DNA from: Octopus vulgaris | Taxonomy: Eukaryota | Reading direction: 5' to 3' | DNA length: 64,000 nt | NCBI GenBank assembly: GCA_951406725.2 | Contig: OX597839.1 | Coordinates: 12,090,001-12,154,000 of the forward strand | Shown here: in pieces, positions 27,020 through 63,705 of the stretch | Position numbering within the stretch: the first letter of the stretch is position 1 | Layout of the letters: every line of letters starts with the position of its first letter | The notes under the pieces: generated by a model | What the model saw: only the letters and a program-made list of their open reading frames with translations | What the model was told of the DNA's origin: nothing | Database searches by the model: none | Made by a program: the position numbers and the translations under genes

Positions 27020-27927
27020 GTCGAATCAAAACTCCGGACGAAAACCAAAACTTTCAGAAAGGGACCGTCGGACTCTTACGCGAATTGTTAGAAAGGATCA
27101 CAAAAGTACACCTCCCAAAATTACTGTAGAGCTTAATGACCACCTCGAGAACCCAGTTTCCACAAAAACTGTTCGTCGGGAGCTGCACAAAGCCGGATTT
27201 CACGAGAGGGCTGCAATCAGAAAACCACCACCTTCAAAAACAAATGTTGCAAAGCGTTTAGAGTGGAGTAAAAACATAAGAATTGGTCCCTAGAGCAGTG
27301 GAAGAAAATTATTTTCTCGGATGAGTCATCCTTTACGTTATTTTCGACCACCGGCCGAGTATACGTGTGGGGACAGCCAAAAGAAGCATTTGACCCAGTC
27401 TGCCTTCTTCCAACTGTTAAACATGGAGGAAGATCTGTGATATCTGAGGGGCTATATCTTGGAAATCCACCGGCCCAATGCTTTCCCTTCATGGCAGCAT
27501 TTTATCTGATCAAATTCATCCTATGGTTGCAGAACTGTTTCCGGAAGGAAACGCAATCTTTCAGGATGATAATGCACCAATTCACACAGCTAAAGTTGTT
27601 ACCGAATGGCACGAGGAACATTCTAGTGAAGTTGAACATCTTATCTGGCCACCACAGTCCCCAGATCTCAGTATTATTGAACATTTATGGTGCATTTTAG
27701 AAAAACAAGTAAAGAGTCGATATCCTCCACCATCATCACTACAAGAACAAGAGACTGTTTTAGCGGTAGAATGGACAAAAATTCCTTTGGAAACAATTGA
27801 AGCTTTGTATATGAGTACATACTTCGTAGAATTCAAGGTGTAATTACTGCCAAAGGCTATTCTACCCGATATTAGAATAAATTTGTTTGAAATCTTAAGG
27901 TGTTTTCATTATATTGTCCAACACCTG
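27020..27927 (+). mobile_element. 5'-truncated Tc1-like transposon, DD36E spacing
   Basis: WKKIIFSDESSF...PTVKHGG, a frameshift, then FQDDNAPIH...WPPQSPDLSIIEHLW (36 residues from D to E). 3' TIR ggtgttttcattatattgtccaacacctg followed by TA. Confidence 0.9.
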
Positions 27928-31773: not shown

Positions 31774-31998
31774 GTTTCTTTATTACCCACAAGGGGCTAA
31801 ACACAGAGGGGACAAACGAGGACAGACAAAGGGATTAAGTTGATTACATGGACCCCAGTGCGAAACTGGTACTTAATTTATCGACCCTGAAAGGATGAAA
31901 GGCAAAGTCGGCCTCGGCGGAATTTGAACTCAGAACGTAACGACAGACGAAATACTGCTAAGCATTTCGCCCGGCGCGCTAATGTGTCTGCCAGCTCG
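31774..31998 (-). mobile_element. SINE family B
   Basis: Reverse complement of the 21213 copy; gagattata occurs on both flanks (probable TSD). Confidence 0.9.
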
Positions 31999-32190
31999 GA
32001 GATTATAACGAGGTACTCAGTCACAAAGTATTCTCAGAGAATCTTAACTAGGGTGTATATATATTAATGTACTAATAACGTATATGAAACACTAAAAGAG
32101 TACCTTAAATCAGAACCTGGTATATGAAATTGTATTCTAAGCCAGGGTATACACTGATACCCCAAAAGTAAATAGACAGCCTTCTTTATA

Positions 32191-32423: not shown

Positions 32424-32504
32424 ACTCTACTCATTAGTATGATGCCCAAAATATTTACTAAATATTAGATTAAGTGGTACTCTGTCAAAGTATTCTCAAA
32501 TACT

Positions 32505-32914
32505 TTGAAAAGACCTAATCGTCAGCATGGAGCTCTGCTGCACGACAACGCCCGCCCTCATATCGCCAATATGACCAAGGAAGCCATTCAAACGCATGGC
32601 TGGCAAGTGCTGCCACACCCGCCGTACTCTCCTCATTTGGCACCAACGGATTTCTACCTCTTTCGATCTCTTTCAAATGCTATGCGCAATTTCGTTCGAT
32701 ACTGAGGCAGAATTGAGAGCTTGGTTGGACCAATTTTTGGAGTCGAAATTGGGTGATTTCTACCAACGAGGTATTGAAAATCTTGTTGAACGTTGGAAAG
32801 AAGTTGTAAACAACAAGGATGAATGGATTATTGATTAATTAGTTGTTATTTTTTATTAAACCTTTTAAAAAATTAAAATTTAAAAAAACGGTGGGAACTT
32901 TGTTGCCAGTCTAA
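32505..32914 (+). mobile_element. mariner DD34D 3' fragment with TIR
   Basis: LLHDNARPH...LPHPPYSPHLAPTDFYLFRSL (D34D), a frameshift, then FYQRGIENLVERW.EVV; TIR aaaacggtgggaactttgttgccagtctaa followed by TA. Confidence 0.9.
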
Positions 32915-32984: not shown

Positions 32985-33120
32985 TTCGTCTATCAAATCC
33001 ACACACAAGGCTTTGGTTGACCCGAGGCTAAAGTAGAAGGTACTTGCCCAAGGTGCCACGTAGAGGGATTGAACCCAAGAACCACGTGGTTGGGAAGCAA
33101 GCTTCTTACCCCATAGCCAC
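32985..33120 (-). mobile_element. SINE family A head
   Basis: cttgcccaaggtgccacg...gaacccaagaaccacgtggttgggaagcaagc. Confidence 0.75.
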
Positions 33121-33124
33121 GATT

Positions 33125-36100
33125 TCAGTACTTCAATATCTCCTCTGAACATGAGCAGCTCATTATAACCCTTAGCCTCTAGTACCTCACTAAAATCCCT
33201 GGCCTTGGGTACTTCATCTTAGCTAATGGGTTTGGCTATGTCATTGTCACTTTTGGTTTGTATTCAAAATAATGTAATATTTTGTGTACCTCACTACAGC
33301 TACTGGCTTTCAGTACCTCACTATAATGTCTAGCCTTCAGTACTTTACTATAACTATCGCCCTTCAGTACCACATTATAAAATCTGATCTCTATAACTAC
33401 TCTGGCCTTGAGTATCTCACTATCTTCTTTGACTCTGAGCACCTCAACAGGTACTTTCCGTACCTTACTGTACCTCCTAGCTTTAGCATTTCAATATAAT
33501 ATTTCAACTTGGGCACCTCACTATAAACTCATACTGTGTAACTCGCTATAATTTGATAGACTCAGTAAAACCTCTGGCCGTGATTGACTCGTCTTAATCT
33601 CTGACTTTGAGTGACTCATTTGAACTTTTGGTCCTGAGTGATTCCTTGTGACCTTAGGTCTTGAATACTTCCGCATAACTTCTGACCTTCAATGATTCAT
33701 TATAACCCCTGGCCTTGAGTACCTCACTATCTTCTCTGCCCCTGAGCGCCTCAGTATAAACCACGACCTTCAGTACCTCACTATATCTGCTGGCCTTACT
33801 GCTTCAGTATCTCCTAACTTGGGTACCTCATTGTAAACTCTGACATTGAGTACCTTCGCTATAATCTCTGATCTTGAGTACCACACTAAAATCCCTGGCC
33901 ATGAATACCTCATTGTGAGTCCTGATCTCGCGTAACTGACCTTGGGTACCTCACTATCTTCTCCGACCAAAGGTACCCATATATAAGCCGTGAGCTTCAG
34001 TTCTTACCCATAACCTTTGGCCTCCAGCGCCTCAGTAAAACTACTGACCCTCAGTACATCATTATAACCCCTGGTTTGGAGTACCAAACAATAATAGCTG
34101 ACCTTCAGAATCTCATTATATTCTCTGCTGTTGCTGAGACTCAGAACTTCCATATAAATGCTGGCGTTCGAGGTTTCAATATATACCCTTGCTGTTAACG
34201 CGTTATTAAAACCCTTATTTTCAGAACCTCAGGATATAGCCTCTAACTATGAGTACTTCGAATTAACCCCCGAACCTGAGTACATTATAATAACCTTAGG
34301 CCATGGCTATGTCACTAAAACTTCTAGATATGTGTATTTTACTACAACTTCCCTTGTTGAGTGTCCCAGTGTAACTGTGGGACTTTAGTGCCTTACAAGG
34401 ATTTCTGATCTTGAGTATCTTAATACCTCTGGCCTTAAGCATGTCAACATACAGCCAGGCTTTGAGTGCCTCACTATATCATATGGCTTTCAGTACTTTA
34501 TTCTAAATGTTGGCCTTGAGTAATATGTCATAACCCCTGGCTTTAATAGACTCAGTAAAACCTTTGGGTGCAATTGACTCGTCTTAATGTCTTACTTTGA
34601 GTGACTCATTAGAACTTTTGACCCTGAGTAATTCCTTGTGACCTCCGGCCTTGAATACTTCTGCATAACTTCTGACCTTCAATGATTCATCATAACGTCT
34701 GGCCTTGAGTGAATCATCATAATATCTGGCCTTCAATAACGCATTATAACCTCTATTTTTGAGTGGTTATAACCACTGGCCTTGAGTACCTCCGTATAAT
34801 GATAGTGAATCATTATAATCTCTGGCCTTGAGTGACTCGTCATAATATCTGGCCTTCAGTGTCTCGTTATAACATCTAGCCTTGAGTGGCTCATTACAAC
34901 CTCTGGCTTTGGGTGACTCTTTATAACCTCTGGCCTTGTGTACCTTTCTATAACCTTTGGTCTTCAGTGACACATTATAACCTCTGGCTTTGGGTGACTC
35001 GTTAAAACCTCTGGCCTTGAGTGACTCGTCATAATATCTGGCCTTGAGTGACTCTTTATATCCGCTGGCCTTGAGTGGCTCATTACAACCTCTGGCTTTG
35101 GGTGACTCTTTATAACCTCTGGCCTTGTCTAGCTTTCTATAACCTTTGGTCTTCAGTGACACATTATAACCTCTGGCTTTGGGTGACTCGTTAAAACCTC
35201 TGGCCTTGAGTGACTCGTCATAATATCTGGCCTTGAGTGACTCTTTATATCCGCTGGCCTTGAGTGGCTCATTACAACCTCTGGCTTTGGGTGACTCTTT
35301 ATAACCTCTGGCCTTGTCTAGCTTTCTATAACCTTTGGTCTTCAGTGACACATTATATCCTCTGGCCTTAAGTGACTCGTCATAATATCTGGCCTTGAGT
35401 GACTCTTTATATCCGCTGGCCTTGAACACCTCTGTATGACCTCTGGTCCTCAGTGACCCATGATAACCTCAGACTTTGGGTGACTCGTCATAACCTCTGG
35501 CCTTGAGGGACTCGTCATAATATCTGGCCTTGAGTGACTCATTATAACTTCTGGCTTTTAGTACCTCAGCATAACCTCTGGCCTTGTGTACCTTTCTATA
35601 ACCTTTGGTCTTCAGTGGCTCATTATAACATCTGGCTTTGGGTGACTCGTTATAACCTCTGGCCTTGAGTGACTCTTTATATCCGCTGGCCTTGAGCATC
35701 TCAGTATAACCTCTGGCCTTGAGTGACTCTTTATAACCTCTGGCCTTGAATGACACGTTATAATATCTGGCCTTGAGTGACTCATAACCTCTGACCTTAG
35801 GTACTTCCATATAACAACGGGCCTTCGGTGACTCATCATAACCTCTAGCCTTCAGTGACTCATTAAAACCTCTGGCCTTGAGTTACTCGTCATAATATCT
35901 GACCTTCAGTGACTCATTATAACTTCAAGCCTTGAGTGACTCATTATAACATCTGGACTTGAGTACCTCAGCATAACCTCTGGCCTCGAATACTTCATTA
36001 TAAGGTCTGGCCTTGAGCATCACATCAAACTCTCTGACCTAGAGTATTTCATTATTATATCTGGCCTTGAGTGGCACATTGAAACATCTGGCCTCGAGGA

Positions 36101-39100
36101 CTTCACTCTAACCTTTGGTCTTGAGTACGTCCAGCTTTGATTATCTATTTTAAAACATCTGGCCTTGAATGTCTCGTTAATAGGTTTGACCTCGAACAAC
36201 TTAGTATAATCTCTGACTTTAAATACATTAACCTCTGGCCTTGAGTACTACTTTATGAACTGTGGCCTTGAGTAACTCATTGTAAGGTCTATCTTTGACT
36301 ACCACAGTTTACTATCGGGGCTGGAGTCCTTCAGTATAATATTAGGCCTTGAGTACCTTACAATAATCTCTGATCTGGAGAAGGTAACTTTAAACTTTGG
36401 TTAGATACCTTATCATAACTTGTAGCAATGAATAACTAATCAGAACCCCTGGCTTTCAATGCTATACGATATACTTCTGGCCTTCAGTACCCTGTGAAAA
36501 TATCTGGTCTTGCATACTTCACTATAACTTCTGGTTTGTGTACTTTGTTTAAGACTGGCATCGAGTACTGCATTATAAGTTTGGCTTTGAATATCTCAAG
36601 AAATCTTTACCAAAACCTCTGGGCATGTTTACCTTAGTAAAATCTCAGTCCTTGAGTATCTCATTTTAAGCTCAGAACATGAGTGCATCACTATAAGATC
36701 TGGCCTCAAGACCTTATTATAAGGTTTGATTCTGAGTACTTCATTATACCCTCTGGCTTTGAGTACCTCAATTTCAGTTCTGTTTTTGGGACCTTATTTT
36801 AAGCCCTGGCCTTGAGTAGTTCAATTTCGGCTCTGGCCTTGAGTACCTCAATTTTAGCTCTGGCTGTAAGTACCTCATCTTAAGCTCTGTTTTTGAGACT
36901 TTATTTTAAGCCCTGGCTTTGAATACTTTATTTAACGCTCTGGCCTGGAATATTTCAATTTCAGTTCTGACATTGGGTATCTCATCTTAGTTTGAACTTG
37001 GACACCATATGGAGTTGGCCTTGCGTCCTTCATCTTAAGCTCTGGTCTTGAAACCTTATTCTAAGCTCTGTCTTTGAGTACCCTAGTTTCGCCTTTAGCT
37101 TTGAGCAGCTCGGTTTCAGCTCTGGCCTTCATTGATTCAGTTTCCTCTCTGGCCTTGCTTTTTACATCTTAAGTTCTGACCTTGAGACCTTATTTTAAGC
37201 TCTGCTTTTGGGATCTATTTTAAACTTTGGCCTTGAGTAGTTCAGTTTCAGCTCTGGCTTTAAGTACCTCATCTTAAGCTCTGTTTTTGAGACTTTATTT
37301 TAAGCCCTGGCTTTGAATACTTTATCTAACGCTCTAGCCTGGAATAATTCAATTTCAGTTCTGACTTTGAGTACCACATCTTACTTTGAACTTGGACACC
37401 ATATAAAATGCTCTTATCCTAATGACAACCGTATAAGGTCAGGCCTTGGAGACCGCTTTATGAACTCTGGTCTTGAGTACTTCATTATAAGCTCTGGCTT
37501 GGAGTATCACCTTATAATCTTTAGCCCTGAGTACTCAACTAAAATAACTGGTCTTGAGTACCTTACATTCACATCTGGCTTTGAACACCACATCCTAAAC
37601 TCTGCCATATTACCTCACTATAGCCTTGTTTACTTCAGTATAAGTTCTGGCTTTGAGTACCTCATTTTAAGATCGGGATCTCAGTAACTTCTGGCTGTGA
37701 AGACCTCAGTATAAGCGCAAACACTGACTACTTTATTTTAGTCTATGATTTTGAGTACCTCATTTTAAGCTCTGGCCTCGAGTACCTCAGTATAACCGCC
37801 GGCCTTGAAAACTTCAATTTAAGATCTGGTCTGTATAAGGTCTGGCTTTGGATACTACATTATACTTCTTAACTTAAATACTCCTTTATAACCACTGGTC
37901 AATAACTTTATATACTCTGGCATGTAGTACCTCATTATAAGCCCTGGCTTTGAATACTACATTGTATCCTCCGGCTTTAATATCTGGCCTTGAATATCTC
38001 ACAGTATCTCACTAAAATATCTGGCCTTGAGTATCTCAGTTGCTTCTAACCATGTGAATTTCGATCCAACCTTGGGTCCTGAGTACCTCATCATAGCTTT
38101 TAACCTTGAGTATCTCATTAAAGCGCCCGGTTTTGAATATTTCATTATAATCTCTGGTATGAGTACCTCATTAAAAGGTTTAGTCTTGAGTGCCAATGTG
38201 TAAGCTCTGGCCATGAGTACCTCGTTTCAAGCTTAGACTTTGAGTACAGTACGTTACCTCACTTCGACCTCTGCAACATCTTTACTTCCGTATAATCCCT
38301 GGCCTTGAGTATCCCAAGTAATGAAGCACTCAAGTGTAGAGTAAAGTCCACACTTGAGTACCTCATTAGATGTTCTGAGTGTGAGCGCCTTACTGTATTA
38401 TCCGTCTTCAGTATTTCACTATAACGTCTGGCTTTGAGTACTTCACTCCAACCCTTGGCCTTGCATGTTTCATTATAACTTAAGCTCTTGAGTATCTCTT
38501 AAAAACGTCTGGCTTTCTGTACCCCCTATATCCCTTCACTTCGAGTACCCTATTAACAACTCTGCCTTGAGGACCTGGTTATAGCTGCTGCTTTGAAGTA
38601 CCTCAGTATAGTAGTTAGTCTTGAGTGGCTCAGTTTAAAATATAACTTTGAGTACTAAAACTTCTGACCTCGAGTGACTCATGATAATCTCAGGCCTTGA
38701 GTGACTCGTTATAATCTCTGGCCTTGAGCGACTCGGAATAACCTCTGACTTGAGTACCTCCATATAGCCTCTGGCTTTGAGTGATTCATTATAATCTCTA
38801 TCCTTGAGTGACTCATTAAAACATCTGTCTTTGAGTGACTCCTTATAAGTCCTGGCTTTGTTATAACCTCTGGCTTTGAGTATCTACGTATAACTTCTGG
38901 CCTTCAATGGCTCATTATAAACTTTGGCCTTGAGTGATACGTCATAACCTCTGGCTTTGTGTACCGTCATACAAAGTTTGCTTTTGAGTGACTCATAAAC
39001 TCTTGCCTTGAGTAGCTTATTATAACCCTTGGCCTTGAGTGACTCATTATTATCTCCGGCGTTAGTGACTCGTTAAAACATCTGGCCTTGAATAACTCGT

Positions 39101-40642
39101 CACAACCTCTGACTTGGAGTATCTCTATACAACCTCTGGCTTTGAGTGACTCGTCATAATCTCTAGCCTTGAGTGAGTCATTAGAATCTATGTCTTTGAG
39201 TAACTTATTACCGGGGACCTTGAGTACCTCCGTATAACCTCTGGCCTTGAATGATTCACTATAATCTCTGGCTCTTGAGTGACTCATTAAAGTCTCTGGG
39301 TTTGAGTAACTTATTATAACTCTAGACCTTGAGCAACGCAATATTATCTCCAGCGTTGAGTGACTCCTTAAAACATATGGCTTTGAGTGACTCATCATAA
39401 TCTGATTCGTTATAACCTCTGGCCTTGAGTGACTCATTATAAGTTCCTGTCCTAAGTATGATATTATAAGTTCAGTTTTTGAGTAGCTCATTATAACCCC
39501 TGGCCTTGAGTAACTCATTACAACCTTCGGCCTTGAGTGACCCATCATTTGTTCGTGTTCTGAATAAAACATTATTAGCTCGATCTATGAGTACCTCATT
39601 ATAAAGGATGGCCTTGAGTACCTCACATTAACTTCTAGTTAGGTTTACCTTTATATCATTTCTGGCCTCGAGTATTTCAAAATAATATCTTGTCTTCGGT
39701 GACTCATTTAACTTCTGACATTAAATGTGTGATGTGTGTGACCCTCTTCGGTCATGACACTGACCATGGGCTTGCACCTAGAAAGTTACCCTCCCAGGCA
39801 CAATAAACCAATAAACCTTGGCCTTGAGTATCTGCGTAACCTCTGGCCTTAAGTAGCTCTTTATAAATCCTGGCCTCGTGTACCTTCATACAGACTTTGG
39901 CTTTGAGTGAGTCATTACAACGTCTGTACTTGAGTATCTGCGTATAAACTCTGACCTTGATATAGTCATTATGATCTCTAGCCTTTACTATCTGCGTATA
40001 ACCTCTGGCCTGGAGTGGCTCATAATAAACTCTGGTCTTAAGTAACTTATTATAACCTCTGGCCTTGAGTACCTACCGATGACCTCTGGCCTTGAGTGAC
40101 TCATCATTACCTATGGTTTTGGCTAACACACTATAACCTCTGACCTTGATAGAGTCATTATAACCCTTGGCCTTGACGGACTCGTTATAACGCCTGGATT
40201 TGAGTTCCTCCATACAGCCTTAGGCTTTGAGTGACTTATTGTAACCTCTGGCCTTGAGTATCTACTTATAACCTTTGGCTTTGAGTGACTCACTATAACA
40301 TCTGACCTTCATTGACACATCATAACCTCTGGTTTTGAGTAACATACTATAACCTCTGGTCTTGATAGAGTGCTTATAACCTCTAGCCTTGTGTGACTCG
40401 TCATAACTTCTGGCCTTGTATACCTTCATACAGACTTTAGTTTTGAGTGACTCATTAAAGCATCTGGCCTTCAGTGACTTATTATAACCTCTGGCTTTGA
40501 GTATCTACGTATAACCTCTGGCGTTGAGTGACTTGTCATAACCTCTGCCCATGAGTACTTTTAGTCTTGATAAACTCAGTATTATCACTGGGCTTGAGTG
40601 ACTCGTCATAACCTCTGCCTATGTGTACTTCCATATAGCTCT
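33125..40642 (-). repeat. 27-bp minisatellite, arm A (consensus ataacctctggccttgagtgactcatt on +), roughly 270 units
   Basis: ctctggccttgagt recurs with a 27-bp period; minus-strand ORFs show a 9-aa repeat (KARGYKESL). Confidence 0.9.
39734..39803. mobile_element. Short non-satellite insert in arm A, probably a SINE/LINE 3' tail
   Basis: gaccctcttcggtcatgacactgaccatgggcttgcacctagaaagttaccctcc interrupts the periodicity next to a short (GT)n run. Confidence 0.45.
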
Positions 40643-43600
40643 CAAGTAAAGACACCACAACTGGAAGCAGTTTAAAACACATGCCCAGAAAATTAGTGAG
40701 ATATAGAATGAGACATTGAGTGCCAACCTATATAGTGGCACAGAGAAGGTCAAACACTATAGTCGGACAGTCGAAGTCCGACACCATAGAGGGAAAGTCA
40801 AGGTCAGATACATATCGAGACAGTCAACATTAGACATTACAGTGGGGGCAGTGAAGGTCAGACACTATAGTACAACAGTCAGGGCCAGATTTCATAGTGG
40901 GTCGGTCAAAGCCAGACATTATAGTGGGACAGTTATGTTCAGACGCTACAGTCAGACAATCATGGTCAGACACTACAGTGGGAAAGTAAATGCCACACAC
41001 TATAATAGGACAGTCAAGGTCAGACACTATAGTGGGACAGTCAAGGTCAGACATTATAACTGGACAGTCATAATCAGACGCTACAGTGGGACAGTGAACG
41101 TGAAATACTATAGTAGGACAGTCAAGGGCTGACACTATAGTGGGACACTCAACATTAGACGTTATAGTAGCACAGTCATGGTCAGACACCATAGTGGGAC
41201 AGTCAAAGCAAAACATTATAGTGGGACAGTCATAATCAGACGCTACAACGAGACAGTAATGATCAAACACTGCAGTGGGGCAGTGAACGCCAGACACTAT
41301 AGTAGGACAGTGAAGATAAGATATTATAGTTGGACAGTTAAGGTCAGGCCGCGACAATGAGACAGTCATGATCAGACACTACAATGGGACAGTGAAGGAC
41401 AGACACTACAAAGGAATATTCAAGGCCAGACATCATAGTTCTACAGAGGGACAGTCAAAGCCAGGCATAACAATGGAACAGTAAAAGTTAGATATCATAG
41501 TTAGATATCAATGTCAGACCCTACAGAAAGGCAGTCAAGGCTAGAGACTATAGGGAGGCAATGAAGGTTAGATGTCATTGTGGGACAGTCAAGGTCAAGA
41601 AAGATAGTGGGACAGTCAAGGCTACATATTATAATAGGTCAAAGAAGGTTAGATTTATAGTGGGACGTTCAAGGTCATACACTGCAAAAGGACAGCCAAG
41701 GCCAGACCTTACAGAGGAACAGTCAACGTCAGACGATATAGTCGCACAGTGAAGGTCAGACACTATACTGGGACAGTTAAAGTGAGTCATCAGACTGGGA
41801 CAGTCGAGGTCAGGCATTATGGTGGTCAGTGAAGCTCAAACATTACAGTGGGGAAGTCGAGATCCGAAACTACAGTGGTGTAGTCAATGCCAGATATTAT
41901 AGTGGGACAGTCATAGTCAGACACTACAGTGGGACAGCCAAGGCCAGATACAATAGTGGGATAGTCAAGGTTAGACATTTTAGTAGGACAGTCAAGTTCA
42001 GACTCTATAGTGGTACAGTCAAGGTCAATCACCACAGTGGGACAGTGAGGGCCAGATATTATAGTGGAGCATTCAAAGGGAGACACTGCAGTGGGATAGT
42101 CAAGGTCAGACACAACAGTTAGATAGTGAAGGACAGTCATTACAGCGGAACAGTAAAGAACATATATTATAGTGAGACAGGTAAGGTCAGAGATCATAGT
42201 AGGACAGTTAAAGCTACGCATTATTGTATGGTAGTCAAGGTCAGAATTATAGTGGAACAGTCAAAAGTCTGGACATTGTAGTTGGACAGTCAGTTATACA
42301 CTACAGTGGCACAAACAAGGCGAGGCATTATAGTGGGAGAATCATGGTCAGACTCAACAGTGGGACAAAGTCAGGCATCTTAGTGGATCAGTCAAGGTCA
42401 TACGTTATAGTGAGACAGTTTAGGTCAGACATCATAGTAGGACAGACAAAGCCAGACATTATTATACTGCGATACTAAAGATCAGTTACTACAGTGGGAG
42501 AGCCAAAGTCAGACATTTTAGGAAGACAGTGAAGGTCAGATTCTGTAGTGGGGAATTCAAAGTGAGAAATCATAATGCGAGACACAAGGCCAGGCATTAC
42601 AGTGAGACAGTCAAGGCCAGACACTATAGAAGAATAGTGAATGTCAAGCGCTACCGTGGGACATTGAAGGTCAGCCATTATCGCTTGACAGTCAAAGTCA
42701 AAGGATACAATGACAAAGTCAAGTCTAGACGTTATAGTCAAGGTCAGCTTTTATAGCGGGACGGTCGTGGCCAGACGTTATAGTGGGACAGTCAGTGCGA
42801 GAAATTTCAGTGGGATTCTTCAGGTCACACACTGCCGTGGAACATTCAAATCGTGGGATAGTCACGTAAAATACTGTAATGAATCAGTTAATGTCTGAGA
42901 CTATAATGGGTCACGCACGGTGAGACATTATATTGTGACAGTCAAGATCAGATAATATAGTGGGACAGTTAAGGTTAGACTTTATAGTGGGACAGTTAAG
43001 GTTAGACTTTATAGTGGGACAGTGAAGGTCAGACACTACTGTGCGAGTTTAAAGGCTAGGAAATATGATGGGACAGTGAAGGCCAACTACTACAGTGCGA
43101 AAGTCAAGACTAGATATTGCTGTAGGACAGTGAAAGTCTGAAACACCAGTCGGGCAATCAAGGCTGGACTTTATAGTGGGACAGTCAAGGTCAGACATAA
43201 TAGTTGCACTGGAAAAGTTAGACACGGTAGTGGGACAGTCAAGGTCAGATAACATGTTGGGAGAGTCAAGGCCAGATTTGAAAATGGGAGAGTCAAAGTC
43301 AGACACTACAGTGGGATGTCAAGGTCAGGCATATAGTGGGACAGTCAAAGTCAGATACTATAGAGGGATAGTCAAGATCAGACGCTACAAGAGAACAATC
43401 ATGGTCAGACAGAATTCTATGACAATCAAGGTGGTATACTATAGTGGGATAGTGAAGGCCAGGCATTATAGTTCTACTATCATGGTCAGACACTATAGCG
43501 GTCTGTGAATGTCAGACACTATAGAGGAACGACCAGGGTCAGATTCTCTAGTCGTATAGTCAAGATCAAACCCTATAGTGGGACGGTCTAGGTCAGACAC

Positions 43601-43770
43601 TATAATGAGATAGAGCCAGACACTCTAGTGGTATGCTCAAGGACAGATACTACGTTGAGACAGTTATGGTGAACACTTTAGTGACACAGTCAAAACGAGA
43701 CGTTACAGCGGGTGTCTAAAGTCTGGTATTACATTGAGATAGTCGAAGTAAGACATTATAGTAAGGTAGT

Positions 43771-45250: not shown

Positions 45251-45787
45251 CAACTGACTAGTGAAGGCACGTAGAGTAGTAGGACAATGAAGGTTAGACA
45301 CAACAGTGAGATATTCAAAATCAGACGTTGAAGTGATGCAGTAAAGGTGAGACACTTTAGTAAGAGGGTCAAGGTCAAATATTATAATAGTATGGTGAAG
45401 GTCAGACACTGTAGTGATGCAATGAGGGTCAGACACTACAGTAGGGGCATGAATGACATACACTATAGAGGGACAGTCAAAGTCAGACACTAGAGCGAGC
45501 CAGTCAAAAAAATTAGACAAGAATGAGAGTCAAGGTCAGGGGGTAGAGTGAAAGTGCTATGGTCAGATACTAGCGTGAGGCAATCAAGGTCAGATATTTT
45601 CGTGAAAAAATGAAGTAATGTATTACAGTGGTTACCTAGTGACACCAGACACTCTAGTGTAACAGCTAAGGCCAGACAATTGTGACACTGTAGGTAAGAC
45701 ATTATTGATTGTCTGTCAATGTCAGACGTTACAGAGTGATAGTGACCAATGACATCCCGCTGTGTGTGTGTGTATGTGTGTGTGTGT

Positions 45788-57700: not shown

Positions 57701-60700
57701 TGTGCCAAAAAGAGGAATGGATAGGGCCATTAAGAAGCATGGATAAGGCAATTAGAAGCACGGATGAGGCAATTGCAAGCATGGATCAGGCAATTAGATG
57801 CATGGATGAGAGAATTAGAAGCATGGATTAGGCATTTAGAAGCATGCCTGACGCAATTAGAAGCATGAGACAATTAGAAGCATGGATGAGGGACGTAGAA
57901 GCATAGATGAGGCAATTAGATGAATGCCTGACGCAAATAGAAGCATGGGAGAGGCAATTGCAAGCATGGATCAGGCAATTAGATGCATGGATGAGAGAAT
58001 TAGAAGAATGCCTGACGCAATGAGAAGCATGGATGACACAATTTCGAAGCATGGAAGGGGCGATTAGAAGTATGAATGAGGCAATTAGAAGCATGGAAGA
58101 GGCAATTAGAAGCATGGATGTGGCAATTAGAAGCATTGATAGGGCAATTAAAAGCATGGATAAGGCAATCAGAAGCATGGATGAGGGAATTAGAAGCATG
58201 GAAAAGGAAATTAGAAGCACGGATGAGGCAATTGCAAGCATGGCTCAGACAAATAGATGCATGGATGAGAGAATTAGAAGCATGGATGAGGCATTTAGGA
58301 GCATGCCTAACGCAATTAGACGCATGGAGGAGACAATTGCAAGCATGGATCAGGCAATGATATCCATGAATGATACAATTAGAAGCATGGATGAGGCAAT
58401 TAGAAGGATGAATGAAGCATTTAGAAGCATGTAAGAGGCAACTAGAAGAATGGATGAAACAATGGATGAGGCAATCAGAAGCATGGAAGCGGCAATAAGA
58501 ATCATGGAGCAGGCAATTCCAAGATTGGATAAGAGAATGAGAAGCATGGATGAGAGAACTAGAAGCATGGATGAGGCATTTAGATGCATGCCCATACGCA
58601 ATTAGAAGAATGGATGTCACAATTAGAAGCATGTAAGAGGCAATTAGAAGAATGGATGAGACAATTAGAAGCATGGATGAGGCAATTAGAATCATGGATC
58701 AGGCAATTCTGAGCATGGAGGAGAGAATTAGAAGCAATTAGAAGCATGGCGGAGGCATTTAGAAGCATGCCTAACGCAATTAGAAGCATGGAAGAGGCAA
58801 TTAGAAAAATGGATTAGTGCAAATACAAGCATGGAAGATGCACTTAGAAGCAGGGAAGAGGCAATAAGAATCATGGAGCAGGCAATTCTAGGCATGGATA
58901 AGAGATTTAGAACATGGATTAGACAATTAGAAGCATGGATGAGGGAATGAGACACATAGATGAGGCAATTAGAAGCATGCCTGACGCAATTAGAACAATG
59001 GGAGAGTAAATCGCAAGCATGGATCAGGCAATGATATGCATGGATGAGAGAATTAGAAGCATGGATGACGCATTTAGAAGCATGCCTGACGCAATGAGAA
59101 GCATGGATGACACAATTAGAAGCATGGAAGGCGCAATTAGAAGTATGAATGAGGCAATTAGAAGCATGGAAGAGGCAATTAGAATCATGGATGAAACATA
59201 AAGAAGCATGGGTTAGTCAAATAGATGCATGGATGTGGCAAATAAAGGCATGGATGGGGCAATTAGAAGAATGGATGAGGCAATAAGAAGCATGGATGAG
59301 GGAATTAAAAGCATGGAATAGGCAATTGGAAGGACGGATGAGGCAATTGCAAGTATGGCTCAGGCAATTAGATGCATGGAAGAGGCAATTAGAATCATGG
59401 ATCAGGCAATTCTGAGCATGGATAAGAAAATTAGAAGCATGGATGAGACAATTAGAAGCATGGATGAGGCATTTAGAATCATGCCTGACGCAATCAGAAG
59501 CATGGAAAAGGCAATTGCAAGCATGGATCAGGCAATGCGATGCATGGATGAGGGAATTAGAATCATGGATGAGGGAATTAGAAGCATGGATGAGAGAATT
59601 AGAAGCATGGATAAGGCAATGAGAAGCATGGATGAGGGAATTGCAAACATGGATCAGGCAATTAGATGCATGGATGAGAGAATTAGTAGCATGGATGAGG
59701 CATTCGGATGCATTCCTGATGCAATTAGAAGAATGGATGTCACAATTAGAAGCATGGAAGAGGCAATTAGACGTATGAATGAGGCAATTGGAAGCATGTA
59801 AGTGGCAATTAGAAGAATGGATGAGACAATTAGAAGCATGTAAGAGGCAATTGCAAGCATGGATCTGGCAATTAGATGCATGGATGAGAGAATTAGAAGC
59901 ATGGCTGAGCCATTTAGAAGCATGCCTGACGCAATGAGAAGCATGGATGACACAATTACAAGCACGGAAGGGGAGATTAGAAGTATGAATGAGGCAATCA
60001 GAAGCACGGAAGAGGCAATTAGAAGCATGGATGAGACAATAAGAAGCATGGGTGAGTCAATTGGAAGCCTGGATTTGGCAAGAAGAGGCATGAATGTGGC
60101 AACTAGAAGCATGGATGAGAAAATTAGAAGCATGGATGAGAGAAATAGAAGCATGGATAAGGGAATTTGAAGCATGGATGGGAGAATTAGAAACATGGAT
60201 GAGGCATTTAGAAGCATGCCTGACGCAATTAGAGACATGGATGACACAACACACTTAGAAGCATGGAAGGGACAATTAGAAGCATGGATGAGACAATTAG
60301 GAGCACAGATAAGGTAATGAGAAGCATGAATGAGGCAATCAGAGGCTTGGATGAGGCAATTAAAAGCATGGAAGCGGCAATTGAATGCATGGATCAGGCA
60401 ATTAGAAGCATGGAAGGGAGAATTAGAAGTATGGCTGAGGCAATTCGATGCATGGATGACACAATTAGAAGCATGGAAGAGGCAATTAGAAGCATGGATG
60501 AGGCTATTAGAAACATGGAAGGGGCAATTAGAAGCATGAATGAGGCAATTAGAAGCATGGATGAGGCAATTAAATGTATGGCGGAGGCAATTAGAAGAAT
60601 AGATTAGGTAATTAGAAGCCTGTATAAGGCAATTAGAAACATGGATAAGGCAATTTGAAGCATGGATGAGGCAAATAGAAGCATGGATGAAGCAATTAGA

Positions 60701-61125
60701 AGTATGGATGGGGCAATTAGAAACATAACGGAGGCAATCAGAAGCATGGATGAGGCAATCAGAATCATGGATGAGGCAAGTAGCAGCATGGAAAAGGCAA
60801 TTAGAAGCATGAATGAGACAATTAAAAGCATGGAAGAGGCAATTTGAATCATGGAAGAGACAATTTGAAGCATGGATGAGGCAAATAGAAGCATGGATGA
60901 AGCAATTAGAAGTATGGATGGGGCAATTAGAAACATAACGGAGTCAATCAGAAGCATGGATGAGGCAATCAGAATCATGGATGAGGCAAGTAGCAGCATG
61001 GAAAAGGCAATTAGAAGCATGAATGAGACAATTAAAAGCATGGAAGAGGCAATTTGAATCATGGAAGAGACAATTAGAAGCATGGATGAGGCAAATAGCA
61101 GCATGGAAGACGCAATTAGAATCAC
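54765..61125 (+). repeat. 21-bp minisatellite (consensus gcaattagaagcatggatgag), roughly 300 units
   Basis: Clear 21-bp period; translates as (MDEAIRS)n interrupted by stops and frameshifts. Confidence 0.95.
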
Positions 61126-61142
61126 GTATGAGATAATTGACT

Positions 61143-61829: not shown

Positions 61830-62251
61830 TGTATGTATGTATGTATGTATCTATCATTTTTATATTTTTGTGTACGTATGACTTACGAGTGTATTATATG
61901 TTTATAACTATATATATATATGCGCACGCATACATACATACATATATGTATGTATGTATCAGTTCGATTTGAAAACCCCACTAGAATGGGAGAAAGCGCT
62001 AATATTTGATATATGATCTAAGTTATATGATGTATAAAAACATGTTATATACAAATAAATATCTGTAAATATAAAACCATCCGAATTTCTGAGTACCTCA
62101 TTTCTTTTAATATATAATACCTGTACATCATCTCCAACCTTCGAGACCCATAATAGCAGGTCCCGCATGCGAAACCCACCGCCTCAGTAACTTTTTAGAC
62201 ACCCTGTTAAAACCACTCCTCAAACATGTCAAAAGCTATATAAGGGACGAC

Positions 62252-63163
62252 TTGGATATGCTCAATCACCTTCCGAATACTATAAACAAAAACACCATAC
62301 TGGTATCCTTCGATGTAGTCAACCTCTACTCCAATATCCCCCACAACCTAGGACTAGAGGCAATCCAATTCTGGCAAGAGAATCACGCCAACGAACTCCC
62401 ACATCGCATCAAAAAAGAATTCGTGACAGAAGGGGTTAAATTCATCCTGGAAAATAACTTCTTCGCCTTCAAAGACAACTTCTACCGACAAAAATCGGGG
62501 ACTGCGATGGGTACACGAATGGCCCCCTCCTTTGCCAACCTAGTCATAGGATATCTAGAGATCAGTCTGTATCGTAAGGTTCTAGAAAGATATGGCAGCC
62601 CTTTCTCCATCTACATAGAAAACAACTGGAAGAGATATCTAGATGACTGTTTCATTCTTTGGCATGAAAATATAGAGAAACTCAAAGAACTCCAAGAAAT
62701 TTTAAACGGACTGAACGTAAACATCCAATTCACGATGGAATATAGCCAGCAACAACTCCCCTTCCTCGATATCCTCATTAAGAAAACTAATAATGTAATA
62801 GAAACAGACATATATTATAAGCCTACAGATTCTAAGCAATATCTTCCATTCAATTCATGCCACCCCAGACACACCAGGATGAATATCCCCTTCAATCTAG
62901 CAAAAAGGATATGCACTATAGTTTCTAATGCAAACACCAGAGACACACGACTACAAGAACTAAAAGATACCCTTATCACCAGGAACTACCCACCTTCACT
63001 TATTGACATGTGCATTCAACGTGCCCTTCAACTTAACATCCAGGAACTGAGACATCCCAAATCAAAGAAAACTTACGACCAAAAGCCTTACCATACATCT
63101 CCACACACAACCCTCTCAACAATGAAGCCTTCGGCACCATCCTCCACAACATACCCCTCCTAA
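62252..63163 (+). pseudogene. PLE reverse transcriptase domain
   Basis: Canonical PLE RT motifs with the YLDD catalytic box; the ORF is truncated upstream and shifted downstream. Confidence 0.9.
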
Positions 63164-63177
63164 AAAAAGACCACAGA

Positions 63178-63705
63178 ATGAACACAATCCTCCAAACACA
63201 CACGATCATAAAAAGCAAGAGACAGCCTAAATCTATGAAAAGTCTCCTAACACAAGCCCGAATACACTCTTCAACACAGAAGCCGACAGTAAAAAAATGT
63301 GGAAGACCCAATTGCGGGATATGCGATTATCTAATTGAGGGATCAGAGTTCTCCTTCAAACAGGGACAACGGTTTACAGTGAAAAGCAACTTCACATGTG
63401 CTTCGGAGAACCTGATATACACACTAACCTGCTCTGGGTGTCAAGAGCAGTACATAGGCCAAACAAAAAATAGTTTGCGTAAAAGAATGGCCCTGCACAG
63501 ATCCCAGATAAAAATTCCCCAAAACAGAAAAATAGCTTTCAGCCAACACATAGATACTTGCGCTAACAACAAAACACCAGGCTTCAGGATTTTCCCCCTC
63601 TACCAATTTAGGGACGATACAACCTCGAGACAACGAATAAGTAAAGAAACTCTCTTTATTACAAAATACAGGCCACTTCTTAACGGGTCTACGACAAACG
63701 ATTAA
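63178..63705 (+). pseudogene. PLE GIY-YIG endonuclease domain
   Basis: LIY...C..C...YIGQT...R...H, with an upstream CxxxxCxxC motif. Confidence 0.9.

What the first reader, a model, noticed from the sequence alone, without database searches (positions are those of the whole stretch)
33125..45745. 12.6-kb bipartite inverted array: two diverged versions of one 27-bp monomer facing opposite ways around an ~85-bp spacer
Seen: the arm A reverse complement tataatgagtcactcaaggccagaggt aligns with arm B tatagtgggacagtcaaggtcagacac at 19 of 27 positions without gaps, sharing tata.tg.g.ca.tcaagg.caga; variant units are closer still. The arms meet at a unique spacer, 40643-40727. Each arm has homogenised separately. 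Known: modular inverted tandem arrays occur in Foldback-type transposons and at inversion or fusion points of subtelomeric satellites. Inference: a giant foldback-like element or an ancient inversion/fusion scar; the conserved tcaagg.caga core may be a protein-binding site. I found no TIR/TSD at the outer ends.
Basis: partly seen in the sequence, partly recalled or inferred. Interest (0 to 1): 0.75.

Follow-up and report, generated by a model that had tools for sequence, protein, structure and literature searches.

The report
Ancient head-to-head single-locus minisatellite
Two related 27-base repeat arrays face opposite ways at one spot of an octopus-like genome, were found nowhere else in it and are shared with related species; they are likely an old tandem repeat split by a local inversion and now decaying, not a jumping gene, although the repeat happens to spell about 70 docking sites for nuclear receptors whose use is untested.

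Summary
Arm A (about 228 units, minus strand, 33125-40637) and arm B (about 132 units, plus strand, 40731-45745) descend from one 27-mer (18 of 27 identical, p about 7e-4) and form separate clades. Contigs of three organisms bridge the junction, so it is not a misassembly. Monomers and spacer were found only here in the 2.8-Gb genome, 12.1 Mb into a 41.2-Mb contig. There is no terminal inverted repeat, target-site duplication or long inverted match, so neither an active foldback nor a subtelomeric scar is supported. Divergence from the most distant relative is 5.9%, close to what two later transposon insertions inside the array suggest for neutral DNA; no coding constraint. Best reading: an ancient locus-private minisatellite split by a local inversion, each arm then expanding separately. 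The shared core TCAAGG(C/T)CA is the NR5A/ERR consensus (69 exact sites; C form in A, T form in B), but between-species changes do not spare it. The scan had not noted this sequence; it noted motif-spelling repeats on other DNA.

The parts
33125..40637 (-). Arm A: about 228 degenerate 27-bp units, 75% identical to consensus; subtypes GAGTCACT (AP-1-like word) and GAGGTACT alternate in blocks; 49 exact TCAAGGYCA (46 C form)
34804..36126 (-). Youngest part of arm A: 189-bp (7-unit) higher-order duplication, 99% identical over 292 bp, longest exact repeat 225 bp
39760..39803 (.). Short fragment of a high-copy dispersed repeat inside arm A
   Evidence: depth spike and loose ends in all four runs
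40638..40730 (.). Spacer between the arms; unique in the genome search; its last 27 bp (40704-40730) are a degenerate in-register unit in arm B orientation
   Evidence: bridged in X3, X4, X17
40731..45745 (+). Arm B: about 132 degenerate 27-bp units, 76% identical to consensus; no recent duplication (nearest 108-bp block about 20% or more different); 20 exact TCAAGGYCA (17 T form)
43770..44073 (.). Later insertion of a dispersed element, flanked by a 7-bp duplication AAGGTAG; absent at this site in organism E, whose run holds next to none of the family
44929..45274 (.). Later insertion of a second dispersed element; absent at this site in organism E

Best explanation
This is a single-locus, non-coding 27-bp minisatellite in two opposed arms, likely formed when a short ancestral array was split by a local inversion or inverted duplication, and it is probably now decaying at close to the neutral rate. 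Shown: common ancestry of the arms, separate homogenisation, one detectable locus, presence with the same junction in related organisms, later transposon insertions in arm B. Inferred: the inversion came early (cross-arm unit distance JC 0.80 against 0.54-0.56 within arms); the spacer is the old flank or the loop of that event; each arm then grew by slippage and unequal exchange; arm B stopped growing long ago while arm A still duplicates blocks (189 bp at 99%). The nuclear-receptor word in the unit is treated as a passenger.
For: Single locus: exact-monomer patterns give 3 and 4 matches, the shared A/B dimer pattern with 2 mismatches 24 matches, all inside this array; DNA searches with each arm and the spacer hit only here. 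Reciprocal clades. No mirror collinearity between arms: best cross-arm run 15.1 against a null maximum averaging 15.4. Stable across organisms: 1.0% from B, 5.9% (487 of 8,214 bases) from E. Two insertions missing at these sites in E carry 24 of 627 private differences (3.8%, CI 2.5-5.6%) against about 3.0% per lineage for the array; not significantly different (p=0.13). Of 62 mapped differences between runs and the window, 27 fall in the 9 core columns, expected 20.7. No coding signal. An unrelated single-locus 21-bp array lies 9 kb away, so large private arrays arise in this region.
Against: The breakpoint event itself is not seen; any inverted origin gives the same geometry. The array holds 0 copies of the three commonest SINE-like pieces where 3.4-5.7 are expected (P 0.033-0.003) and is the longest stretch free of common repeats and microsatellites in 264 kb, which is odd for dead DNA of this age, though the 21-bp array is equally bare. 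The insertion clock is only a lower bound on the neutral rate. If organism E is as distant as the two octopus species with published autosomal dS 0.123 (PMC10925132, passage), the array (JC 0.062) runs at half that; E's identity is not given. In arm A the AAGG.CA columns are better kept than base-matched columns (p 0.012-0.018). Multi-kilobase short-unit arrays were not seen in 20 of 20 random 10-kb stretches, so the object is uncommon.
Confidence: 0.6

Rival explanations
1. The array is the in-place overgrowth of the internal tandem unit of an extinct transposon: a foldback element with repeat-bearing inverted arms round a short middle, or two opposed non-autonomous Helentrons (HINEs). The other copies have decayed beyond detection.
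For: Geometry matches foldbacks: inverted arms with tandem-repeat domains round a middle domain (PMC4079207, passages). HINEs carry central tandem arrays in molluscs (PMC7492417, passages). Earlier scan notes report nuclear-receptor words in HINE cores of other animals (e1-9152714, e1-9264066; unchecked). At unit distances of JC 0.3-0.8 old short copies would escape my searches.
Against: No outer inverted domain (local score 23, shuffle maximum 29) and no 5-12 bp direct repeat across the ends; no subTIR-plus-palindrome module at the ends or in the spacer; no second copy; a 4-unit profile finds nothing below E 0.4 in 20 other motif-bearing loci or 200 kb of random DNA. Both outer ends abut younger repeats, so the negative is weak.
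Confidence: 0.17
2. The array works as a homotypic cluster of nuclear-receptor sites (NR5A/FTZ-F1-type TCAAGGCCA in arm A, ERR-type TCAAGGTCA in arm B, plus AP-1-like words in A), acting as an enhancer, silencer or protein sink, and is kept by weak selection on site number. This concerns function and is compatible with either origin.
For: 69 exact TCAAGGYCA in 12.6 kb against 7 in 400 kb of other DNA. The C/T split between arms matches the published Nr5a2 versus Esrrb preference in mouse (PMC8451941, passages). Core columns better kept in arm A. SINE-free stretch. Tandem repeats with 45-61 homotypic motifs act as enhancers in human (PMC13373173, abstract).
Against: Any amplified unit multiplies whatever word it holds. 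Intact sites are no commoner than column independence predicts (30 vs 28.8 in A, 12 vs 9.2 in B). A site-breaking G-to-A change in AAGG is among the commonest variants (0.29 in A, 0.21 in B). Differences between organisms do not spare the core (27 of 62). No host-gene Pfam match among 71 candidate exon frames from 264 kb. The genome-wide excess of paired sites (134 vs 58 for the reversed pattern) is no more than the 9-mer background (7 vs 2 per 400 kb) would give, and several pairs look SINE- or (TCA)n-derived by eye.
Confidence: 0.15
3. The arms are decayed exons of genes for proteins of 9-residue repeats (YNEVLKARG in A, YSGTVKVRH in B).
For: Both consensus units are open in the same register; arm B shows a mild deficit of stop-creating changes (18 vs 30.9) and an omega-like ratio of 0.84 in that frame.
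Against: Arm A ratio 1.15 with 48 in-register stops; irregular gaps are multiples of 3 in only 17 of 56 (A) and 6 of 27 (B) cases; listed indels against organism E are mostly not in frame; no protein relatives in two searches with limited length ranges.
Confidence: 0.04
4. The junction is the scar of an end-to-end chromosome fusion that joined two subtelomeric satellite arrays.
For: Head-to-head degenerate arrays are the known form of such scars (recalled: human 2q13). Octopod chromosomes were reshuffled by fusions (general knowledge).
Against: Interstitial position (12.1 of 41.2 Mb); no copies of the unit found elsewhere, chromosome ends included; no telomeric hexamer array at the junction; the G/A-rich strands point away from the spacer, the reverse of a telomere fusion.
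Confidence: 0.04

Closest known systems
Single-locus minisatellites/VNTRs with higher-order block duplication (general knowledge; PMC8096271 seen as search listing only)
   Same: One locus, 27-bp unit, block duplications of different ages, variant subtypes in patches.
   Different: Far longer (12.6 kb), far more degenerate (units about 39% different pairwise) and split into two opposed, separately homogenised arms.
Foldback transposons such as Tetris of Drosophila virilis (PMC4079207, passages read)
   Same: Inverted arms holding tandem repeats round a non-coding middle.
   Different: Tetris has recognisable TIRs, 8-10 bp TSDs and dispersed copies; none of these was found here, and the arms are only about 51% alike unit to unit.
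HINE non-autonomous Helentrons with central tandem arrays, Crassostrea gigas (PMC7492417, passages read)
   Same: Mollusc tandem array that could stem from a mobile element's core.
   Different: HINE arrays are dispersed, in one orientation, flanked by subTIRs, a microsatellite and a 3' palindrome; none found here.
MORC3-restricted tandem-repeat enhancers with homotypic motif clusters (PMC13373173, abstract and outline read)
   Same: A tandem repeat carrying tens of copies of one transcription-factor consensus.
   Different: Function there is shown by experiment; here binding is untested, no target gene was identified and the motif is not spared between species.

Membership tests
Foldback transposon | Long, closely similar terminal inverted repeats reaching the outer ends | tested here: not met
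   No inverted HSP at E<1e-10; outer-end score within shuffles; proximal 800 bp align at 364 of 643.
Foldback transposon | 8-10 bp target-site duplication | tested here: not met
   No shared 5-12-mer between 33086-33145 and 45726-45780; both ends abut younger repeats, so loss is possible.
Foldback transposon | Dispersed copies | tested here: not met
   Searches hit only this locus; very old short copies would be missed.
Foldback transposon | Tandem-repeat domains in opposite orientation round a middle domain | tested here: met
HINE / non-autonomous Helentron | 5' subTIR and IR with microsatellite; 3' subTIR and palindrome | tested here: not met
   Inverted-repeat scan of both ends and the spacer shows only microsatellite or chance pairs.
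HINE / non-autonomous Helentron | Dispersed copies with one array orientation | tested here: not met
   Single locus, two orientations.
Subtelomeric satellite / fusion scar | Unit present at chromosome ends or telomeric repeats at the junction | tested here: not met
Subtelomeric satellite / fusion scar | Synteny breakpoint against outgroups | not testable with these tools
   No other cephalopod assembly is held.
Single-locus minisatellite | 10-100 bp unit in tandem at one locus | tested here: met
Single-locus minisatellite | Growth by block duplication; length variation | tested here: inconclusive
   Duplications at 99%, 89% and 83% identity in arm A and unit-scale indels between organisms; copy-number polymorphism within the species not resolved by contigs.
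Homotypic motif-cluster enhancer | Many copies of one factor's consensus | tested here: met
   69 exact TCAAGGYCA; consensus from PMC8451941.
Homotypic motif-cluster enhancer | Motif kept better than flanking bases | tested here: inconclusive
   Arm A p 0.012-0.018, arm B p 0.22-0.23; 27 of 62 orthologous differences in core, expected 20.7.
Homotypic motif-cluster enhancer | Factor occupancy and regulatory activity | not testable with these tools
   Needs ChIP/CUT&RUN, ATAC or reporter data.
Repeat-protein coding exon | Open frame under purifying selection, in-frame indels | tested here: not met

The most novel reading that the evidence does not exclude
The locus is a 12.6-kb bidirectional nuclear-receptor platform kept for tens of millions of years: one arm tuned to NR5A/FTZ-F1 (46 of 49 sites TCAAGGCCA), the opposed arm to ERR (17 of 20 sites TCAAGGTCA), acting as a long-range enhancer or receptor sink, with selection on total site number rather than on single sites and against insertions.
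Probability: 0.12. Interest if true: 0.7.

Novelty: new member of a known kind. Interest (0 to 1): 0.3.

Why it matters
As read here it is a clean natural record of concerted evolution: one unit, split by an inversion, homogenised separately in two arms 90 bp apart, with one arm frozen and one still duplicating, and datable insertions inside. That is useful to students of tandem repeats but not surprising. It would matter more if the roughly 70 NR5A/ERR consensus sites are bound in vivo, because it would be an invertebrate case of a tandem-repeat enhancer or sink with arm-specific receptor preference, testable with existing octopus chromatin methods.

Tried and rejected
Misassembly: rejected. 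Coding frames: all six registers tested for both arms and the 21-bp array, none constrained; two protein searches empty within their length ranges; a Pfam AlkA_N match to an arm B frame (E 3.6e-6, 27.6 bits against a cut-off of 26) and coiled-coil matches to the 21-bp array frames are taken as repeat-composition artefacts. Hairpin or structured RNA: the 691-nt junction folds at z = -1.87, 1 of 20 shuffles as good; no Rfam match inside the array at E<=0.1. Expression: no RNA holder listed, which says nothing either way. Neutral control from flanks: the second lay listed only paralogous repeat pieces for organism E in the flank, so no orthologous flank divergence was obtained; the supplement of PMC10925132 gave methods but no absolute window values in the 4 passages seen, and figure values cannot be seen. 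Mirror collinearity between arms: none. Genome-wide enrichment of paired NR5A/ERR sites: not above the 9-mer background. Host gene: 71 of 79 candidate exon frames scanned (nested duplicates dropped), only a transposase domain found; the filter is crude and small exons would be missed. Possible third inverted remnant at 32004: marginal (E 0.082). Literature: searches listed no paper on this locus or on head-to-head minisatellites in cephalopods; subscription journals are mostly not covered.
Full report
Setting. The window is G000:C26:12,090,001-12,154,000 of a 2.8-Gb genome in 227 contigs; C26 is 41.2 Mb long, so the finding lies far from either end. Genome size, microsatellite load and SINE-like repeats suggest an octopus (inference; the name comes from no call except earlier scan notes).

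Observation. TRF reports 27-bp periods over both arms and base skews reverse at the junction. Iterated profiles units in arm A and 132 in arm B, covering 82% and 71% of the arms; consensus A and B agree at 18 of 27 positions, reached by 14 of 20,000 shuffles. Units are about 75% identical to their own consensus, 39% different pairwise within arms and 49% across arms. A tree of 52 four-unit blocks splits A from B with support 0.995; 0 of 52 blocks and 5 of 360 units are nearest to the other arm. The spacer runs from 40638 to 40730 and its last 27 bp are a decayed unit in register with arm B.

Is the junction real? Of four runs laid on 36000-45750, listed contig pieces bridge the junction in X3 (organism A, possibly the source sample), X4 (organism B) and X17 (organism E); none was listed for X7. 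Depth is single-copy over most of the array, modestly raised at 38.6-40.5 kb where units cross-match, and spikes at three embedded repeats. The left end of arm A is also present in E.

Copy number. The B monomer pattern (1 mismatch) gives 3 matches, the A pattern 4, the shared dimer pattern (2 mismatches) 24; all lie in this array. DNA searches with the junction, 2 kb of B and 2.2 kb of A hit only here; the tool warns that DNA searches skip common words. Profiles find nothing comparable in 200 kb of flank.

Foldback, HINE and fusion tests. No inverted HSP between the arms at E<1e-10; outer ends score within shuffles, no direct repeat of 5 bp or more spans the ends, and there is no mirror collinearity; no HINE-type end module. 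Defining features were taken from PMC4079207 and PMC7492417 (passages read). The junction folds only marginally better than shuffles as RNA (z -1.87).

Age and rate. Against organism E the array differs at 487 of 8,214 aligned bases (5.9%, JC 0.062; all ten array pieces listed for X17; computed). Against B it differs by 1.0% (five pieces; a sixth of 412 bases with no difference was left out and would give 0.96%). Two dispersed elements sit in arm B; E's contig runs straight across both sites, and E's run holds next to none of the first family (depth 13.5 against more than 200,000 in X3 and X4). Both families have over a thousand candidates genome-wide. Compared with 20 of their closest listed relatives each, the window's copies carry 10 of 293 and 14 of 334 private differences: 3.8% (CI 2.5-5.6%) against about 3.0% per lineage for the array, p=0.13. 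This is a lower bound for the neutral rate, so mild constraint is not excluded. Published autosomal dS between two octopus species is 0.123 (PMC10925132, passage); if E is that distant the array runs at half of it, but E is not named and an orthologous flank control failed. Unit-to-consensus distance (JC 0.30-0.31) is about ten times the per-lineage distance to E; on the transposon clock of PMC13282606 (JC 0.2 about 56 My; part 1 of 3 and passages read) that is very roughly 85 My, an upper-leaning figure because units may have differed when copied. Arm B has no young duplication (nearest 108-bp block about 20-32% different); arm A has blocks at 99%, 89% and 83%.

Signs against a plain fossil. 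The array is the longest stretch free of common repeats and microsatellites in 264 kb, and the neighbouring 21-bp array is second. Three SINE-like pieces form 79 clusters in 174.5 kb of other DNA and none in the array (expected 5.7, or 3.4 counting only those not next to a microsatellite; P 0.003 and 0.033). Array turnover or target-site preference could explain this, since the unrelated array shares it. Multi-kilobase short-unit arrays were absent from 20 of 20 random 10-kb stretches; 3 of 20 held smaller or long-unit arrays.

Coding. Both units are open in one register, but synonymous and non-synonymous variation is near neutral in all six registers (arm A 1.15, arm B 0.84 in that frame) and irregular gaps are mostly not multiples of three. 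No protein relatives.

The shared core. TCAAGG(C/T)CA is the Esrrb/Nr5a2 consensus, with T preferred by Esrrb and C by Nr5a2 in mouse (PMC8451941, passages). Arm A has 46 C and 3 T sites, arm B 17 T and 3 C; other DNA has 7 per 400 kb. Arm A also has 21 AP-1-like words (motif recalled). With units defined by their neighbours, the AAGG.CA columns are better kept than base-matched columns in A (p 0.012-0.018) but not in B (p 0.22-0.23), and intact sites match the independence expectation. Of the 80 differences listed (of 1,096 found), 62 map to units and 27 fall in the nine core columns, expected 20.7. Other, unrelated minisatellites in this genome carry the same word, for example 27 sites in 2.8 kb on C7, but paired sites (134 against 58 for the reversed pattern) are not above the single-word background. 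No host-gene domain was found among 71 candidate exon frames in 264 kb. Tandem repeats with homotypic clusters can be enhancers (PMC13373173, abstract), so the idea is kept as the novel case at 0.12.

Mechanism. Most likely a short 27-bp minisatellite was split by a local inversion or fold-back duplication, leaving about 66-93 bp between the halves; exchange between opposed arms being rare (inferred), each arm expanded and homogenised alone; arm B froze and took two insertions after the split from E; arm A still duplicates blocks. Steps shown: ancestry, separate clades, single detectable locus, shared junction, insertion order. Steps inferred: the rearrangement type, the growth mechanism, neutrality.

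Earlier notes. None lies at this place or matches this sequence. Notes on motif-spelling satellites in this genome prompted the motif check; notes on receptor words in HINEs and in a shark minisatellite prompted the HINE test and resemble my reading. They are unchecked AI notes.

Verdict. Real and well supported as sequence; a new member of a known kind; interest 0.3.

Noticed in passing
window 54772-61132 (+): A second large degenerate array (21-bp unit, about 292 units), also single-locus (25 matches, all here); one frame reads as the heptad IRSMDEA and scores as generic coiled coil, but shows no coding constraint; it is also free of common SINE-like pieces.
   Followed up: partly
window 54279-54770: By eye a decayed L1/Tx1-type endonuclease fragment directly precedes the 21-bp array; not tested with a profile.
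   Followed up: no
window 43770-44073 and 44929-45274: Both inserted elements carry hammerhead-like words (CTGATGA, CGAAA) on the minus strand and may belong to the retrozyme-like families noted earlier in this genome; Rfam gave no match at E<=0.1.
   Followed up: partly
window 31994-32150 (+): One or two arm-A-like units in the opposite orientation between two SINEs, 1.1 kb left of arm A; best profile hit outside the array but marginal (E 0.082).
   Followed up: partly
L159:5200-8150 (G000:C7, 13.75 Mb): Irregular AAGGTCA-rich cluster grading into 24-bp and 20-bp minisatellites with 27 exact TCAAGGYCA sites; unrelated to the 27-bp unit.
   Followed up: partly
L166:4400-5870 (G000:C3, 56.67 Mb): AAGGTCA-rich clusters on opposite strands either side of about 5200-5440, the same divergent geometry on a small scale.
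   Followed up: no
L161, L164, L170 (G000:C8 40.6 Mb, C2 199.9 Mb, C17 70.9 Mb): Further unrelated minisatellites (36, 17 and 16 bp units) containing TCAAGGYCA.
   Followed up: no
window 49570-50070 and 51580-51760: Unique, complex stretches with YY1-like words (recalled motif) and a GTAAG donor-like site between the two arrays; may be a promoter or conserved element; untested.
   Followed up: no
window 62111-63702 (+); 27272-27840; 32500-32840: Reverse-transcriptase/GIY-YIG-like (Penelope-type) frames by eye, and Tc1/mariner fragments, one with a DDE_3 match.
   Followed up: no
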